Shown here piece after piece: positions 33,001 through 42,000 of a stretch of 64,000 nt of DNA. This DNA comes from Rhodobacterales bacterium (GTDB taxonomy: Bacteria > Pseudomonadota > Alphaproteobacteria > Rhodobacterales > Rhodobacteraceae): positions 38-64,037 of the forward strand of contig JBGSWJ010000523.1 of NCBI GenBank assembly GCA_041752495.1, written 5' to 3'. Each line of letters starts with the position of its first letter. Position 1 is the stretch's first letter. The position numbers are program-made.

Positions 33001-36000
33001 ACGGCGATTGGTTCTTGTCATCACGGGCAAGGGCAAGTTGCGGGATGATCTGGCGCCCATGCCTGTGCGGCAAGGCGTTTTGCGCCATCAGGTGCCGCAT
33101 TGGCTGAACATGGCACCGCTGCGGCAGACCATTCTGCAGATCACCCCCGCGCATATCAGCCATGGCGGGAGTGGCGCGTATTACGTCTATCTCAAGCGGA
33201 ACCGCTAAAGCACGTAGCGGCTGAGATCGGTGGAGCGGCTTAGTTCGCCCAGATGGGTTTCGACAAAGGCGGCGTTGATTTCAACCGCTTCGCCGGCCCG
33301 GTCGGGTGCGGTGAAGGACAGCTCTTCGAAGACACGTTCCATCACGGTGTAAAGACGGCGTGCGCCGATGTTTTCGACGGTCCGGTTCACCTCGGCCGCG
33401 ATGCGGGCAAGGGCTGCGATGCCTTCGGGGGTAAAGGAAACGGTGACGTTTTCAGTGCCCATCAGGGCTGAGTATTGCAGTGTAAGCGCGTTGTCGGTTT
33501 CCGTCAGGATGCGGACAAAATCCTGTTCTGTCAGCGGCTTGAGTTCCACGCGGATGGGAAGGCGGCCCTGAAGTTCGGGCAAGAGGTCAGACGGTTTGGC
33601 GATGTGAAATGCGCCAGAGGCGATGAAAAGGATATGGTCTGTCTTGACCGGCCCGTGTTTGGTGGAAACCGTCGTCCCTTCGATCAGGGGGAGGAGGTCG
33701 CGCTGAACCCCTTCGCGGCTGACATCGGCGCCGCGGGATTCCGACCGGGCGCAGACCTTGTCGATTTCATCAAGAAAGACGATGCCGTTCTGTTCGACCG
33801 CCTCGAGAGCGGCCTTGGTCACGGCTTCGTCGTCCAGAAGCTTGTCGGCCTCGTCAGCGATCAGGAGTTCGTAGCTGTCCGCGACGGTAACGCGCTTCTT
33901 GACCTTGCGGCCGCCAAAGGCTTTGCCGAAGAGATCGCCAATGTTCATCATTCCGCCCATGCCGCCCATGCCGGGCTGACCCGGCACTTCGAAGCCCATC
34001 GGGTTGCTGGTGTCTGTCAGCTCGATCTCGATCATGGTCGTGTCGAGTTCGCCGGACTTGAGCTTGCGACGGAACATATCGCGGGTGGATTCGCGGGCGT
34101 CGGTTCCAGCGATGGCGGTGATCACGCGCTCTTCGGCAGCGTGATGGGCTTTGGCCTTTACGTCGTCGCGCATCTGCGTGCGGACCTGAGAAATGCCGAT
34201 ATCCACCAGATCCCGGATGATCTGTTCCACGTCGCGGCCGACATAGCCGACTTCTGTGAATTTGGTCGCCTCGACCTTGATAAAGGGGGCGCGGGCGAGT
34301 TTGGCCAAGCGGCGGCTGATCTCGGTCTTGCCGACGCCGGTGGGGCCGATCATGAGGATGTTCTTGGGATAGACCTCCTCCCTTAGGCCGGCATCCAGCT
34401 GCTTGCGCCGCCAGCGATTGCGAAGCGCGACGGCTACGGCACGTTTGGCGTCCTTTTGCCCGATGATGAAGCGGTCAAGCTCTGAAACGATCTCTCGGGG
34501 GGTCAGGTCGGTCATGGATTGGTCCTTTGTTCAGGCCCTGATCTATGGCCGATTGACCGGAAATCCAAGAGAGGCGACAAAGAGGGACGAAATGTAGCTA
34601 CAGGAGTGGCAGATGCGGAAGGTCGTTCGGAAATTGCCACGACAGGGCAGAATGCCCCCGCCTGCCGCGCCCCCGCTGGAACCCGTGATCGAACCGGGAG
34701 AGTGGACCAATGTTCAGATCATCCCGCCGGAACCGAAGAAGCTGATCTCGCTTCGGCTTGACCCCGATGTTCTTGCGTTTTTTCAGGGACAGGGCCGAGG
34801 GTATCAGACCCGCATCAACGCTGTGTTGCGGGCCTATATGAAGGCGAACAAGGGTGACTGACGTCTACTGAAGATTCTGCCAGATCAGCGTCTGATCGCC
34901 GCCAAGTTTGGAATAGTGGATCGGGCGATACTGTTCAGCAAAGCGGTCGAGCGCGTCGTGGTCGGGCATATCGTCAAGCTGCAGATAAGCTTCGATCCAA
35001 GCGAAATAGAAGCCCTCGAATTCGTCGGTGCCGTCAAAGAAACTTTGGATTTCGCCGGTGATGGCAGTGGTGGCGGCCCCGTCGTCGATGTCGTTCATTG
35101 CGAACCGGATGATGCGCGAGAGCGCACCGTCACAGACGTTCTGAAGATCGATCCCCTGCCGTTGGAGCAGGAGTGTTGAGACGACAAGCGGGGAAATGGC
35201 GTGAAGCTGATAGTGCAGCGCGAACTTGCCCCGGCCCATTTCCTGAGGAAGACTTCCGTCCTGAGCGGCCGAGCACATGATGTGACTGACTGACCATGCA
35301 GACCAGGCGCGCAAGGCCGGGTCGTCGAGGATTGCTGCCGCGCTTGCCCCGCCAAGGGCGGACCACGCGCGCAGATTGCCTTGGCGTGCACCATCGGGGG
35401 CTTCGTTTTCCCAATAGGCCGTCTGCGCCCACATCAGCCGCCGCAACCAAGACTTGATATCATCCACGTCGCTGGACGGAGTCGCAAAGGGAATGACCTG
35501 AAGCAGGACCAGACCGAAGCCTGCAATCCGCGAGCCGACCGTGAGATTTGCGGTTTCCGAAGCAAGATCAGACATGGCATCGGCGCGTGCCCAGACGGTG
35601 ATCTGACCAATAATGCAATCGGCGATGTCCTGTCGTTCGTCGGCATCCTCGAACACCTTGTTTGCGTCGGTCGTCAGATCGCGCAGAAAATCATCGACGG
35701 GCCGCAGGGCGTCATCGGCCTCTTCGGCAGCGTCAGGGTCGATTTCAGACCGAGTTCCTTCCTGGTCGGAGTAGCGGCTTCCATAGGACAAGCTAAGCAC
35801 AGGCTCGGGCGGTTCGGCGCATTGTTCGGCGAGAGCTGTGCCGGCGCCGGACAGGAACATCACAAGCGCGACGACTGTATTCCGCATCATTCGACCACCT
35901 CGATCCGGAGAATGCGGGCGAGGGATGCCGCTTCGGTATTGCCGGCCCTTTCAGCCTGTTCGAGCCAATTCAGCGCGAGAGTCCGATCCTCGGAGATGCC

Positions 36001-39000: not shown

Positions 39001-42000
39001 GGGCCAGGTTTTCAAAGACCGGATTGGCCCAGATCAGATAACTGGGGCGCGATTCCTGAAAAGCACGTGAGGTGAGGTAGGACGAGATGGCCGCAAAGGC
39101 CCCGCCTCCGTCGAGGGTGTATTCGAGCACTTCGAGACCCGTGCCTTCGGCGATGAAGCCCGAGAGGTTGGCGATGGTGCCGCCGGTGTATTCGGTGCCG
39201 ACAAGTGCGATCACACCATTCCCTTGGGTGGAACCCAGCAGGGCATTGGTGCCAGTGTTCTGGCCTGCCTGAAACCGCGTTGTTGAGTAGGTCTCGGCCT
39301 CGACCGGGGGTAGCGGCATGGCGCAATGGCGTTGAAGGACGTTGCGCATGTCGGATTCAATGATCGCGGTTCCTGCGGACCTTGTTTCAAAGGAGGACTT
39401 TGGCAGGCCTGCGAACGGATCGGTTGCGGTGATGACGGTGGTGATGGCGTCGGCCATCCGCCGCGCGCCGTCCGGCGTCATGCGGTAATCGGTCTGAAAG
39501 AAGGACGGCGGCGCTTCGGGCGCCGTGCGCAGGGCGATGCGGATGTTTGTCGTCAGCACGCCATTTTCGGTCAGCCTGCGCAGCATTTCGTCGTAGACGG
39601 TCGTCGCGATGTTCAGGTCGAACCCGAAATCCAGTGCGGTCGGCGGAAGTTGGTCCGGCATTGCCAGGCTTTTCGTCGGGACGGGAACATAGATCAGCGT
39701 TGTTCCGAGCGCGGCCAACGCTTCGGAAAGTTCGGCGATCTGGGCCACCGTGTGGTCCGAGAAGGGGTGGAACATGTGCATGTCGGGGTCGATACGATAA
39801 AAGACGCCGTGCGTTCCTTCGATGCTGGGCAGGCTGTGCCGACCGGCAAGATCGATACAGCTGTAGGTCGATTGTGCGACGGCAGGCAGCGAGAGAAGCG
39901 ATCCGAGGCAGACCGCTGCAGCAAGGAAAATGCGCTGGATCATTGGACGACCACCGTGTCTGCACCGTCAGACTGCAGCGCCAGCAAGTTCGTTGCTGTC
40001 ACGCTGACCTGAAAGTTGCCGGCTGATGCCGCGCGGTTGAGATAATCGATGGCGAGCGCCCTATCCGCGTCCGAGACGGGTTCATCCAGTAGCAATGCCA
40101 GTGCCAGGCGCAGGGACGCCCGTCCGTCACCGTTCTTCTGATCCTGTTCAAGGATCCTGGCGCGCGTCGCTTCGGACAGGGCACCGAATAGGCGGCCTTC
40201 GCCATTCAGGTCGATAACGGCATCAAGCGCGAGCGAATTGCCTGCCCATGCATGGGCATAAAGCATGCCGATGTAGGCGCTGATTCGTTCGGGCGGTTCG
40301 GTTGCGGGGTCGAGATAGTGCATCGCCTCAATTGCGTTAGGCAGGGTCCAGACCCGGCCAGTGCTGACCGCGATGGTGGCGTAGTAGGCAATGTCGGATG
40401 GGTTTGCAGGCGGATTGAGTGTCTCGAGAAAGCGGACGTATCTTTGTGCGGCCAGACCGTCATTCAGATCGGCGAGGGCGCGCAGTGCCTTTGGGCTGAC
40501 GTCCTCACCAGCGAGCATCGCCGTCCGCGCAGCCTTGAGGTCTTCGGGAAGGGTGGCGTTGCTGGACAGACCGGGGATCACGACGACGCTGACAAGACGG
40601 CCTTTCTGGCTTGTCGGAAGGGTGATGGTCGGACTGCTCGCAGCCTCTGTGCTTTGCGCGGCAAGGGGAAGCGGCGCGCAAATGCAGGCAATCAGGAGAA
40701 GACGCGGCAGGAAACCTTGAGGCATTCTTTTGGCCTTTCTTTATTGGTCGTCACAAACACTCGCTATTGGCATGACATCCGAGACCCCGCCCGACGCGAT
40801 GACGAAGGGAGATTCACCGCGCATGTGACGCGCGACTTCAGGGGTCTGAATCGCAATATCCCCGCTCAGAAACTGCTGGTACTGGCGGGAAAAGTCGTTG
40901 CCATCCATCAAGATGACCTCGGTCTTGGCACCGGCGAGGCCGGCACCGTTGAACGAGACGATGTTGCCTGTCAGCATCGTCTGCGCCCCGGCGGGTTGGT
41001 CTGATATCCAGATTCCCGCACTTTCATTGCTGAAGATCGTGTTGTTGCTCAGTTGGGCGGATACGCTTGCGCGGACTTCGATGCCCTTCTGGTGGTTTTC
41101 GATGACGAGATTATTGTGCACCTGGCCGCAATCGGATTCGAAGAGGGCGATGCCGCCACCCTGCCGGTTCCAGACAATGTTGTTGGCAACTGTCACGCCG
41201 ACCGAGTTCGTTCGGACGACAATCCCGGCACGGTCGCCGCCCAGAATGACGTTGCCCGCGATGACACCATCGGCAGAGCCGGTTTCAAACCGGATCGCGT
41301 TGGTTGGCATACCGCCGTAGAAAACGTTGGAAAGGATGCGTGCGTCCTGCGTCCGTGAAACGGTCAGCGAGGGGCCAAGCATATCGTGGAAACGGTTGCC
41401 CCGGAGGACAGCGCCTGTATCACCGCTGAGCGATAGGCTGATGATGCCTTCAAAGCTTGAATTCTCGATCCGGCTGGGGCGGTCCGGCGACTGCAGAACG
41501 CTGCGCATGATCGAAAAGCCCGAGAACTTTTGTGTATCGCCAAAGCCAAGACCGATGAAGCGCCCGGCCCTGATATCGACAGTGCCCGCTTCGGCCGTTG
41601 TGACAAAGGGTTCGAACGAGCGGATCCGCGCATTCGTATCCCCGACGGCACGCACCGTGGCGCCCTGGATCTGAAGCTGGCCGAAGTTGACGACAAAGGC
41701 GCCGTCTGAACGGCTAAGCTCCAACACGTCACCGGGACCAAGGACCAGTGCAGCCCCGCCCATGATCACAAGGGGGGTCTTGAGCGTCAGGGTCGTCCCG
41801 CCCGAGCCGAGTTGCAGGTAGGTTTGCAGATCGGCAAGAGTGGCGTTTCCCTTGCGGATGACGATTGCCTGACCGCTTGTCGAAGACTGTGCACCGAGGA
41901 CGAGCGTATTGTCTTCTGGTCCGAACGCCTGTGTCAGGGGCGTCAGCGCAAGGCGCATGTTGAGTGCGGAAACTTCAGGTGGAACTGCTGGCGCCGCCGG

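What the first reader, a model, noticed from the sequence alone, without database searches (positions are those of the whole stretch)
35887..40725. Secretion and modification module is non-canonical: no porin, no AlgI/AlgJ/AlgF, and two Sel1-repeat proteins in place of AlgK-AlgE
Nothing in the island looks like the AlgE beta-barrel porin, the MBOAT AlgI, or AlgF. Where Pseudomonas has algK-algE, this locus has a secreted 261-aa Sel1-like protein (39940-40725) and a 911-aa signal-peptide Sel1/TPR-like protein (35887-38622). The larger one is about twice the size of AlgK as I recall it and appears all-helical to its C-terminus (..ALNWLEQAERAGNTEAASLARILRIEVVE). So outer-membrane export is unaccounted for. 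Either a porin is encoded elsewhere, or the giant repeat protein recruits a different channel, or the polymer is handled differently. That would be a new architecture for a synthase-dependent system; alginate, cellulose, PNAG and Pel all pair a TPR with a barrel.
Basis: inference. Interest (0 to 1): 0.7.

Follow-up and report, generated by a model that had tools for sequence, protein, structure and literature searches.

The report
Barrel-less alginate-type export module in Rhodobacterales
A marine/freshwater alphaproteobacterium carries a compact alginate-like sugar-polymer operon. It has two all-helical periplasmic proteins where Pseudomonas has its lipoprotein and outer-membrane pore, so how the polymer leaves the cell is unknown, as it is for BcsK-type cellulose systems.

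Summary
The 9-gene minus-strand operon (34865-47691) lies between hslU and hslV. It encodes AlgD, Alg8, Alg44-like, ManC, AlgG-like, a 261-aa protein, AlgX-like, a 911-aa Sel1 protein and AlgL-like. No beta-barrel, MBOAT or AlgF is found anywhere in the 64-kb window.

AlphaFold models show both query proteins as purely helical solenoids (pLDDT 84 and 88). Neither is an AlgK by sequence, and neither has a conserved lipobox.

The same 9-gene order recurs in 80 Rhodobacterales species with unrelated flanks. A 12-gene long form occurs in Rhizobium, Salipiger and Loktanella. It adds AlgI/AlgJ/AlgF, keeps both helical proteins and still has no barrel.

In the short form, AlgX has lost its catalytic His and Ser. 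AlgG-like lacks DPHD in both forms.

The best reading is that the 911-aa protein is an AlgK/BcsK-like periplasmic scaffold, that the 261-aa protein is an accessory subunit, and that the outer-membrane channel is supplied from elsewhere.

The claim of a wholly new architecture is overstated. Barrel-less TPR partners (BcsK) and atypical alginate operons lacking algKE are already published. I classify this as a new variant of a known kind, of moderate interest.

The parts
35887..38622 (-). Sel911: 911-aa periplasmic Sel1-like-repeat superhelix (type I signal peptide, mature about 97 kDa, pI 4.4). Proposed AlgK/BcsK-type scaffold.
   Evidence: Pfam Sel1, 59.6 bits. The AF2 model is all-alpha with about 50 helices, pLDDT 83.7. 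Foldseek matches are generic SLR/TPR solenoids. The profile scores AlgK only at E=0.0018, against 1e-43 for generic Sel1 proteins. There is no conserved lipobox, 5/81. All 4 Cys, 9/11 Trp and 25 Arg are conserved. Its stop overlaps the algL start by 4 nt.
39940..40725 (-). P261: 261-aa secreted all-helical repeat protein. It is an orphan family with a degenerate SLR-like fold, and an accessory subunit or regulator.
   Evidence: It has no Pfam, NCBIfam or PDB sequence match. The AF2 model has pLDDT 88.5 and 11 helices after the signal peptide. Fold similarity is weak, to HcpC, DELE1 and LpnE (TM 0.31-0.50). hhalign to Sel911 gives probability 4.7%. More than 200 homologues exist. It is absent from 9 of the 80 related loci. 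Its stop overlaps the algX start.
38633..39943 (-). AlgX-like protein: SGNH-like domain plus a C-terminal domain, with the catalytic triad destroyed. Presumed scaffold-only subunit.
   Evidence: PF16822, 134 bits. Best PDB hits are AlgX 7ULA/4KNC. Across 76 family members Asp is kept in 76/76, His176 is Arg in 73/76, and Ser269 is Glu/Asp in 61/76 with Ser in only 1. Long-form AlgX in Rhizobium, Salipiger and Loktanella keeps DxHW and GTS.
40741..42282 (-). AlgG-like right-handed beta-helix protein without the DPHD epimerase motif. The ORF extends to a TTG at 42351; the ATG at 42282 is the likelier start.
   Evidence: Pfam Beta_helix/NosD. Best PDB hit is AlgG 4OZZ at E 3e-13. The DPHD columns are not conserved, and the His column is a gap in 74/74 members. 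DPHD is also absent in the long forms.
34865..35890 (-). AlgL-like PL5 lyase with an altered active-site motif (GNLRAW instead of NNH(S/Y)YW).
   Evidence: PF05426. PDB hits are Smlt1473 and AlgL. His is Leu in 77/77, the next residue is Arg in 77/77, and the catalytic Tyr and Arg are kept in 77/77.
42275..43705 (-). ManC/AlgA-type mannose-1-phosphate guanylyltransferase.
   Evidence: TIGR01479 at 1.6e-99; Pfam NTP_transferase.
43702..44862 (-). Alg44-like co-polymerase with a degenerate PilZ domain.
   Evidence: It holds the conserved operon position between alg8 and manC. It has no Pfam or PDB hit. The Rhizobium orthologue has a weak HlyD_3 hit. The RxxxR and DxSxxG motifs are lost family-wide.
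44890..46365 (-). Alg8-like GT2 polysaccharide synthase.
   Evidence: Pfam Glyco_tranf_2_3, 101.6 bits. Synteny is conserved in 67 loci.
46372..47691 (-). AlgD, GDP-mannose 6-dehydrogenase.
   Evidence: Best PDB hit is P. aeruginosa GMD 1MFZ/1MV8, E 7e-128 over the full length, against 1e-74 for UDP-glucose dehydrogenases.
48073..48996 (+). Divergently transcribed polysaccharide lyase with a lipobox (LLAAC).
   Evidence: PF14099. It is present upstream of algD in most related loci. The Tateyamaria orthologue is annotated as heparin lyase I family. The N-terminus was read.
33205..34515 (-). hslU, the downstream boundary of the island.
   Evidence: Translation. The same neighbour follows algL in the closest relative, L001.
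49000..49560 (-). hslV, the upstream boundary of the island.
   Evidence: Translation.

Best explanation
This is the reduced, 9-gene form of an alphaproteobacterial alginate-type, synthase-dependent operon.

Synthesis (cytoplasm and inner membrane). AlgD and ManC make GDP-mannuronate. Alg8 with the Alg44-like protein polymerises it and passes it across the inner membrane.

Periplasmic conduit. The chain is received by a protective periplasmic assembly. Its backbone is the 911-aa Sel1-repeat superhelix, Sel911. Sel911 plays the part that the lipoprotein AlgK plays in Pseudomonas and that BcsK plays in type III cellulose systems. Docked on it are an AlgX-like and an AlgG-like protein that have kept their folds but not their catalytic residues. 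The AlgL-like lyase clears stray polymer.

The 261-aa protein. P261 is a small, degenerate SLR-like accessory subunit. It is probably translationally coupled to AlgX.

Predicted product. The polymer should be non-acetylated and probably non-epimerised polymannuronate.

Outer-membrane step. The operon encodes no outer-membrane channel, so that step must be done by a host-encoded channel acting in trans. My first guess is an unlinked beta-barrel that docks on Sel911.

Shown versus inferred. Shown here: gene content, the folds, the loss of catalytic residues, conservation, and the absence of a barrel. Inferred: the scaffold role, the contacts between subunits, the polymer chemistry and the identity of the channel.
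For: Gene content and folds. AlgD is a GDP-mannose dehydrogenase. Sel911 and P261 are all-alpha with signal peptides.

Sequence relationships. Sel911 carries Sel1 repeats. Its profile touches only the C-terminal repeats of AlgK (7ULA residues 308-401, E 0.0018). That stretch overlaps the region where AlgX binds AlgK (TPR R9-R10: Q372, R383, R404; PMC9734138).

Operon structure. The genes are tightly packed (4-nt overlaps at P261/algX and Sel911/algL, a 10-nt gap at algX/Sel911), which would allow translational coupling.

Conservation. The same order recurs in 80 Rhodobacterales species in unrelated genomic contexts and on plasmids. The 12-gene long form in Rhizobium, Salipiger and Loktanella adds AlgI, AlgJ and AlgF. 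It keeps P261 and Sel911 and has no barrel. Pseudomonas also has 12 genes, so P261 and Sel911 are the two that stand where AlgK and AlgE are missing.

Catalytic residues. The AlgX triad is intact in the long forms and lost in 73-75 of 76 short-form proteins. This fits a retained structural role.

Sequence composition. Arg, Trp and Cys are enriched among the conserved Sel911 positions of an otherwise acidic protein. This fits binding of a polyanion.

Precedent. BcsK is a barrel-less TPR partner with the channel supplied from elsewhere.
Against: No interaction, localisation or polymer data exist.

Sel911 is not an AlgK by any membership test. It has no lipobox, is twice the size, and shows only generic SLR similarity.

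P261 has no informative relatives and is missing in 9 of the 80 related loci, so it cannot be essential to the conduit.

The altered AlgL motif (His to Leu) and the missing AlgG and AlgX catalytic residues could instead mean a different chemistry that I cannot predict.

I could not search any whole genome for a partner channel.
Confidence: 0.55

Rival explanations
1. A dedicated AlgE/Alginate_exp-type (or BcsC/PgaA-like) beta-barrel is encoded elsewhere in the genome and docks on Sel911. On this view only the gene linkage is unusual, not the mechanism.
For: The canonical systems all end in a barrel (PMC9734138). Sel911 is the right kind of partner, a long TPR/SLR superhelix. Nothing in the window excludes an unlinked gene.
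Against: The cassette moves between unrelated chromosomal sites and plasmids without any co-travelling outer-membrane gene. A dedicated partner would be expected to be linked. Three different alphaproteobacterial operon forms all lack one.
Confidence: 0.35
2. The Alg44-like protein, whose periplasmic part is of the membrane-fusion (HlyD) type, recruits a housekeeping TolC-type outer-membrane factor, together with Sel911. The polymer then leaves through a trimeric alpha/beta tunnel rather than a porin.
For: The Rhizobium orthologue of Alg44 gives a weak HlyD_3 hit. A cyanobacterial cellulose synthase is proposed to work with a HlyD-like protein and a TolC-like exporter (PMC8892547). A universal host channel would explain why the cassette is self-sufficient when it moves.
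Against: The HlyD hit is below threshold (17.3 bits against 22.2). This model gives no reason for a 97-kDa SLR superhelix. No TolC gene is linked.
Confidence: 0.15
3. Sel911, alone or with P261, oligomerises into the outer-membrane conduit itself. This would be a Wza-like helical pore, as has been speculated for BcsK.
For: The idea has been raised for BcsK. It would make the cassette truly autonomous.
Against: There is no lipobox. Beyond the signal peptide there is no hydrophobic or long amphipathic terminal helix; the last helix is 15 residues, 896-910. The protein is highly acidic and soluble-looking. P261 is dispensable in some lineages.
Confidence: 0.05
4. P261 is not part of the conduit. 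It is a periplasmic regulatory SLR protein, comparable to ExoR of rhizobia, that tunes polymer production.
For: It is similar in size to the 267-position NCBIfam ExoR model and is predicted to be periplasmic. The Rhizobium orthologue weakly matches the NCBIfam MerG model (E 1.3e-4), and the Sel911-like protein weakly touches the ExoR model. P261 is lost in 9 of 80 loci without loss of the rest of the operon. The long-form loci carry a response-regulator gene upstream.
Against: Its stop overlaps the algX start by 4 nt, which suggests stoichiometric co-assembly. No sensor kinase is linked in the short form. The P261 profile has no significant match to ExoR or to any PDB protein.
Confidence: 0.2
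5. The short-form operon is a decaying or repurposed remnant that no longer exports a polymer. This would explain the loss of AlgI/J/F, the AlgX triad, the PilZ motifs and the AlgL His.
For: Several canonical catalytic or regulatory motifs are missing.
Against: All nine ORFs are intact and hold their lengths across 80 species, with identities falling to about 35-45%. The substituted positions are themselves conserved (Arg 73/76; Leu-Arg 77/77). That is the signature of selection, not decay. The only fragmented copy is in an assembly whose alg genes are all fragmented.
Confidence: 0.07

Closest known systems
AlgK (Pseudomonas alginate outer-membrane TPR lipoprotein; PDB 3E4B, 7ULA)
   Same: Both are secreted all-helical TPR/SLR-type solenoids encoded in an alg8/alg44/algX/algG/algL operon. 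The Sel911 profile weakly aligns to AlgK's C-terminal repeats, the region that binds the AlgX N-terminus.
   Different: Sel911 is twice as long (911 against about 475 aa). It has no lipobox. It is not next to an algE gene and not between alg44 and algG. It scores far better against generic Sel1 proteins than against AlgK (1e-43 against 2e-3). No NCBIfam AlgK hit was found.
BcsK (barrel-less TPR scaffold of type III cellulose synthase operons in alpha-proteobacteria and cyanobacteria)
   Same: Both are periplasmic repeat proteins that replace a TPR-plus-barrel exporter in a synthase-dependent operon. Neither has a porin gene nearby, and the outer-membrane route is unknown for both (PMC8892547). 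Both occur in the same bacterial class.
   Different: The polymer system differs (alginate-type rather than cellulose). Homology between Sel911 and BcsK was not tested. Sel911 comes with a second small helical protein, P261.
TPR domains of BcsC, PgaA and PelB
   Same: All are long superhelical periplasmic repeat domains that bind polymer-modifying enzymes. Sel911 is of the same order of size as the BcsC TPR region (from my own knowledge, not tested here).
   Different: In those proteins the TPR domain is covalently fused to a C-terminal beta-barrel. About 80 full-length Sel911 relatives of 897-935 aa in the representative search show no such extension.
'Atypical' alginate operons of Bundalovic-Torma et al. 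2020 (PMC7112194), e.g. Dinoroseobacter shibae
   Same: These are alginate-type operons outside Pseudomonas that have lost algKE and/or acetylation loci.
   Different: The survey did not describe Sel911 or P261. The one Rhodobacteraceae example it lists has a different order and retains AlgF/I/J.
ExoR (rhizobial periplasmic Sel1-repeat regulator), as a comparison for P261 only
   Same: Both are small periplasmic helical-repeat proteins in alphaproteobacterial exopolysaccharide contexts.
   Different: P261 shows no significant sequence match to ExoR.

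Membership tests
AlgK | Outer-membrane lipoprotein (lipobox with a Cys at the signal-peptide cleavage site) | tested here: not met
   Lipobox-like strings occur in 5/81 Sel911 and 2/67 P261 sequences, and at non-conserved positions. The conserved cleavage is AxA followed by (T)xDxAFxPP.
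AlgK | Sequence membership (NCBIfam AlgK model; similarity to the solved AlgK structures) | tested here: not met
   No AlgK model hit even at E up to 10. The Sel911 profile scores AlgK 7ULA_B at E 0.0018 and 3E4B at E 0.079, against 1e-43 for generic Sel1 proteins. P261 gives nothing.
AlgK | All-helical TPR-like superhelix of about 9.5-10 repeats | tested here: inconclusive
   The fold class is met: Sel911 is all-alpha with about 50 helices. The size is about 2.5 times as many repeats. P261 has only about 5 hairpins.
AlgK | Gene next to algE, between alg44 and algG | tested here: not met
   That slot holds manC. Sel911 lies between algX and algL.
AlgK | Binds the AlgX N-terminus and localises AlgE | not testable with these tools
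   This needs pull-downs or a complex prediction. The only hints are possible translational coupling and a conserved aromatic-x-Cys motif at the mature AlgX N-terminus.
AlgE / Alginate_exp (PF13372) | 18-stranded outer-membrane beta-barrel | tested here: not met
   No Pfam or NCBIfam hit for any island protein. Sel911 and P261 models have no strands. Intergenic gaps are at most 380 bp, so no barrel gene fits. The rest of the window is housekeeping genes.
Sel1-like repeat proteins (PF08238) | Significant match to the Sel1 repeat model | tested here: met
   Sel911 scores 59.6 bits against a cut-off of 30.7. Its profile matches solved SLR proteins at 1e-43.
Sel1-like repeat proteins (PF08238), P261 | Significant match to the Sel1 repeat model | tested here: not met
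   No Pfam hit. hhalign to Sel911 gives probability 4.7%. Fold similarity to HcpC, DELE1 and LpnE is only weak. The Rhizobium orthologue gives a sub-threshold MerG hit.
AlgX/AlgJ SGNH-like O-acetyltransferases | ALGX domain (PF16822) | tested here: met
   134 bits. Best PDB hits are AlgX 7ULA and 4KNC.
AlgX/AlgJ SGNH-like O-acetyltransferases | Asp-His-Ser catalytic triad (AlgX D174/H176/S269) | tested here: not met
   The window protein has D-R-E. Across the family His is Arg in 73/76 and Ser is Glu/Asp in 61/76. The triad is intact in the long-form orthologues.
Alginate O-acetylation machinery | AlgI (MBOAT), AlgJ and AlgF present | tested here: not met
   No Pfam or NCBIfam hits. tblastn of the whole window with Rhizobium AlgI, AlgJ and AlgF finds only the AlgX-like gene.
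AlgG mannuronan C5-epimerase | DPHD catalytic motif in the beta-helix | tested here: not met
   The beta-helix is present, but the DPHD columns are not conserved and the His column is a gap in 74/74. DPHD is absent in the long forms too. The NCBIfam AlgG score is 62.6 against a cut-off of 700.
BcsK-type barrel-less scaffold (functional class) | Secreted repeat protein in a synthase-dependent operon, with no porin domain and no porin gene nearby | tested here: met
   The class is defined in PMC8892547. Sequence homology to BcsK was not tested.

The most novel reading that the evidence does not exclude
Alphaproteobacterial alginate-type systems export their polymer without any AlgE/BcsC-type barrel. 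Sel911, with or without P261, either couples the Alg8-Alg44 synthase to a general outer-membrane channel such as TolC or builds a new kind of conduit. The same solution would then underlie the unexplained BcsK-type cellulose systems.
Probability: 0.2. Interest if true: 0.8.

Novelty: new variant of a known kind. Interest (0 to 1): 0.5.

Why it matters
How barrel-less synthase-dependent systems get a polymer across the outer membrane is an acknowledged open question for BcsK-type cellulose secretion.

This operon offers a second, independent and widespread case. It occurs in at least 80 Rhodobacterales species, several of them cultured, and also in Rhizobium, Salipiger and Loktanella.

It is a compact and apparently mobile cassette, which makes the question testable by heterologous transfer.

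It also gives a natural experiment on scaffold versus enzyme roles. AlgX keeps its fold but loses its triad exactly where AlgI/J/F are lost.

Finally, it predicts that many roseobacters make plain polymannuronate. That bears on marine biofilm and particle chemistry, and on making defined alginates.

Tried and rejected
1. Foldseek of both models against the PDB to find an AlgK-specific match gave only generic SLR/TPR solenoids for Sel911. Nothing was significant for P261.

2. I tested whether P261 is a paralogue of Sel911. hhalign gave probability 4.7%, so I rejected this.

3. I looked for a Rosetta-stone fusion. One 824-aa AlgX::Sel911 protein (P0302) appeared in the representative search. Its contig has every alg gene fragmented by frameshifts, so it is an assembly artefact.

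4. I looked for a conserved neighbour that could be the porin. Clustering of all ORFs downstream of algL in about 76 loci found no family present in more than 4 loci.

5. I considered the type II secretion secretin on the Tateyamaria plasmid as a channel. No T2SS genes are annotated in the first 50 kb of the Jannaschia plasmid, which includes the operon, or in the window, so I dropped it.

6. PDB sequence searches for Alg8 and Alg44 found nothing.

7. The R. etli 8C-3 third operon type was inspected in the hope of finding an alphaproteobacterial barrel to use as a seed. Pfam found none.

8. A genome-wide porin search was not possible.

Full report
**What is there.** On the minus strand between hslU (33205-34515) and hslV (49000-49560) lies a tightly packed nine-gene operon:

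| Gene | Coordinates |
|---|---|
| algD | 46372-47691 |
| alg8-like | 44890-46365 |
| alg44-like | 43702-44862 |
| manC/algA | 42275-43705 |
| algG-like | 40741-42282/42351 |
| 261-aa gene (P261) | 39940-40725 |
| algX-like | 38633-39943 |
| 911-aa gene (Sel911) | 35887-38622 |
| algL-like | 34865-35890 |

A polysaccharide-lyase gene (48073-48996) is transcribed divergently from the operon.

The assignments rest on several searches.
- Pfam and NCBIfam support them.
- AlgD is closest to the solved GDP-mannose 6-dehydrogenase (E 7e-128, against 1e-74 for UDP-glucose dehydrogenases). The substrate is therefore GDP-mannuronate.
- P261/algX and Sel911/algL overlap by 4 nt, and algX/Sel911 are 10 nt apart.
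- The remaining 50 kb of the window is housekeeping genes.

**Check of the observation.** No island protein matches Alginate_exp, MBOAT, AlgF, AlgK or AlgE models. tblastn of the entire window with AlgI, AlgJ and AlgF from a Rhizobium relative finds only the AlgX-like gene. No intergenic gap exceeds 380 bp.

AlphaFold2 with family alignments gives confident models:
- Sel911 has pLDDT 83.7 and about 50 helices.
- P261 has pLDDT 88.5 and 11 helices after its signal peptide.
- Neither model has a single strand of three or more residues.

Two corrections are needed.
- P261 is not a Sel1 protein by any sequence test. It shows only weak fold similarity to SLR proteins.
- The two genes do not sit at the algK-algE position.

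**What the two proteins are.** Sel911 carries Sel1 repeats (59.6 bits; profile against solved SLR proteins 1e-43). Foldseek returns only generic SLR/TPR solenoids. AlgK is reached only at E 0.0018, through Sel911's C-terminal repeats aligned to AlgK residues 308-401. That stretch overlaps the region that binds the AlgX N-terminus in the AlgKX crystal structure (PMC9734138). It is also simply the most canonical SLR stretch of Sel911.

Several sequence features describe Sel911 further.
- Neither Sel911 nor P261 has a conserved lipobox, so neither is an AlgK-like lipoprotein.
- Sel911 is acidic (pI 4.4).
- All four Cys, nine of eleven Trp and 25 Arg are conserved. This fits a disulfide-bonded periplasmic protein with a polyanion-binding surface, though that is inference.
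- Among 1.8 billion representative proteins, about 80 full-length relatives have lengths of 897-935 aa and none carries an extra domain.
- The one apparent AlgX::Sel911 fusion comes from an assembly whose alg genes are all fragmented, and is an artefact.

**Comparative evidence.** A scan of species-representative genomes returned 80 loci, almost all labelled Rhodobacterales or Rhodobacteraceae. They include the following cultured taxa: Marinovum algicola, Lentibacter algarum, Tateyamaria, Phaeobacter, Halovulum and Pseudaestuariivita.

The findings from these loci are:
- Every locus long enough shows the same order, algD-alg8-alg44-manC-algG-(P261)-algX-Sel911-algL.
- Nine loci lack P261.
- No gene family recurs downstream of algL in more than 4 loci.
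- Only the closest relative shares the hslU neighbour.
- The cassette also sits on plasmids of Tateyamaria omphalii and Jannaschia sp. M317.

The cassette therefore moves as a unit without any co-travelling outer-membrane gene.

**A long form.** Plasmids of Rhizobium sp. T136, Salipiger sp. CCB-MM3 and Loktanella salsilacus carry a 12-gene version. Its order is algD-alg8-alg44-manC-algG-algI(MBOAT)-algJ-P261-algX-algF-Sel911-algL. A response-regulator gene usually lies upstream. This version has the full acetylation machinery, both helical proteins and still no barrel. Pseudomonas also has 12 alg genes. The two that differ are AlgK and AlgE on one side, and P261 and Sel911 on the other.

A third Rhizobium type (R. 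etli 8C-3) has yet other giant Sel1 and beta-helix proteins, and again no barrel by Pfam.

The barrel-less layout is therefore an old alphaproteobacterial trait, and the window holds its reduced form.

**How the polymer is handled.** Four proteins depart from the canonical motifs.
- AlgX-like: in the short form the Asp-His-Ser triad reads Asp-Arg-Glu/Asp. His is Arg in 73/76 and Ser survives in 1/76. In all three long-form loci AlgX and AlgJ keep DxHW, and GTS was found in all of them except Loktanella AlgJ. Loss of the triad therefore tracks loss of AlgI/J/F, yet the protein is kept. That argues for a structural role like the one AlgX has in the Pseudomonas periplasmic scaffold.
- AlgG-like: it has no DPHD motif in any form.
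- AlgL-like: it has GNLRAW instead of NNH(S/Y)YW. His is Leu in 77/77, while the catalytic Tyr and Arg are kept.
- Alg44-like: it has lost the RxxxR and DxSxxG c-di-GMP motifs.

The predicted product is non-acetylated and probably non-epimerised polymannuronate. Its synthesis is not controlled through a canonical PilZ site.

**Mechanism proposed.** Sel911 is the periplasmic superhelical scaffold, like AlgK and BcsK in function but not a member of the AlgK family. It holds the AlgX-like and AlgG-like subunits around the nascent chain. P261 is an accessory, or possibly a regulatory, subunit. The outer-membrane step is done by a channel encoded elsewhere.

I rank the options for that channel as follows:

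| Option | Confidence |
|---|---|
| An unlinked barrel | 0.35 |
| A TolC-type factor recruited via the membrane-fusion-like part of Alg44 (precedent in cyanobacterial cellulose) | 0.15 |
| A self-made pore | 0.05 |

Decay of the operon is unlikely, because the ORFs and even the substituted residues are conserved across 80 species.

**Comparison with the literature.**
- Type III cellulose systems of alpha-proteobacteria and cyanobacteria replace BcsC with the barrel-less TPR protein BcsK. No nearby porin gene exists, and the export route is openly unknown (PMC8892547).
- A 2020 survey reported atypical alginate operons that lost algKE or acetylation loci, and it lists a different Dinoroseobacter cluster (PMC7112194).
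- Searches of the paper library found no description of Sel911, of P261, or of this Rhodobacterales operon.

**Verdict.** The system is best called a new variant of a known kind: an alginate-type counterpart of BcsK-type barrel-less secretion. It adds a clean example of modification enzymes surviving as catalytically dead scaffold subunits. Interest is moderate (0.5). It would be high if export proves to be independent of any dedicated barrel.

Noticed in passing
window 33205-34515 and 49000-49560: The 14.5-kb polysaccharide island splits hslV from hslU, which normally form one operon. The hslV stop is 3 nt from the convergent lyase-gene stop, and hslU now follows algL after a 350-bp gap. Only the closest relative (L001) shares this insertion site.
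   Followed up: partly
window 38633-39943; family in L001-L080: The AlgX-like protein has lost its catalytic His (now Arg, 73/76) and Ser (now Glu/Asp, 61/76) across the short-form family. Long-form orthologues that still have AlgI/J/F keep the triad. Loss of enzyme activity tracks loss of the acetyl-donor machinery.
   Followed up: yes
window 40741-42282: The AlgG-like beta-helix protein lacks the DPHD epimerase motif in both short and long alphaproteobacterial operons. The polymer may therefore contain no guluronate.
   Followed up: yes
window 34865-35890: The AlgL-like PL5 lyase has an invariant GNLRAW motif (His to Leu, with an adjacent invariant Arg) in 77/77 family members and in the Rhizobium, Salipiger and Loktanella orthologues. 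The catalytic Tyr and Arg are kept in all 77 family members. Activity and specificity are unknown.
   Followed up: partly
window 43702-44862: The Alg44-like protein has no detectable PilZ domain. The RxxxR and DxSxxG c-di-GMP-binding motifs are replaced family-wide (71 sequences), whereas the R. etli 8C-3 variant keeps them. Regulation is probably not through canonical c-di-GMP binding.
   Followed up: partly
window 48073-48996: The divergent polysaccharide lyase (PF14099; its orthologue is annotated as heparin lyase I family) has a lipobox (LLAAC). It accompanies the operon in most related loci.
   Followed up: partly
L081/L083 (Tateyamaria omphalii plasmid pDOK1-4-5): A 54-kb RepABC plasmid carries the whole short-form operon. 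It also carries a complete type II secretion system, further TPR and SEL1-like genes, and tail-fibre-like genes. The PLSDB gene table lists no gene at the algX position on this plasmid, possibly because it is a pseudogene.
   Followed up: partly
L086 (Rhizobium etli 8C-3 plasmid pRsp8C3c): This is a third alphaproteobacterial alg-type locus. It has a 1249-aa AlgG-like protein, a 1035-aa Sel1 protein, a PilZ-positive Alg44, AlgX, AlgF and an RTX-type PL7 alginate lyase. Pfam finds no barrel in the six ORFs scanned.
   Followed up: partly
L042, L065-L070, L073, L074: Nine related loci (Halovulum, Silicimonas, Aliiroseovarius, Boseongicola and others) have algG directly followed by algX with no P261 gene. 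P261 is therefore dispensable in some lineages.
   Followed up: partly
L008, L068: Two loci with the typical Rhodobacterales operon (52-57% identity) are labelled Granulosicoccus and Exiguobacterium MAGs. These are probably binning errors.
   Followed up: no
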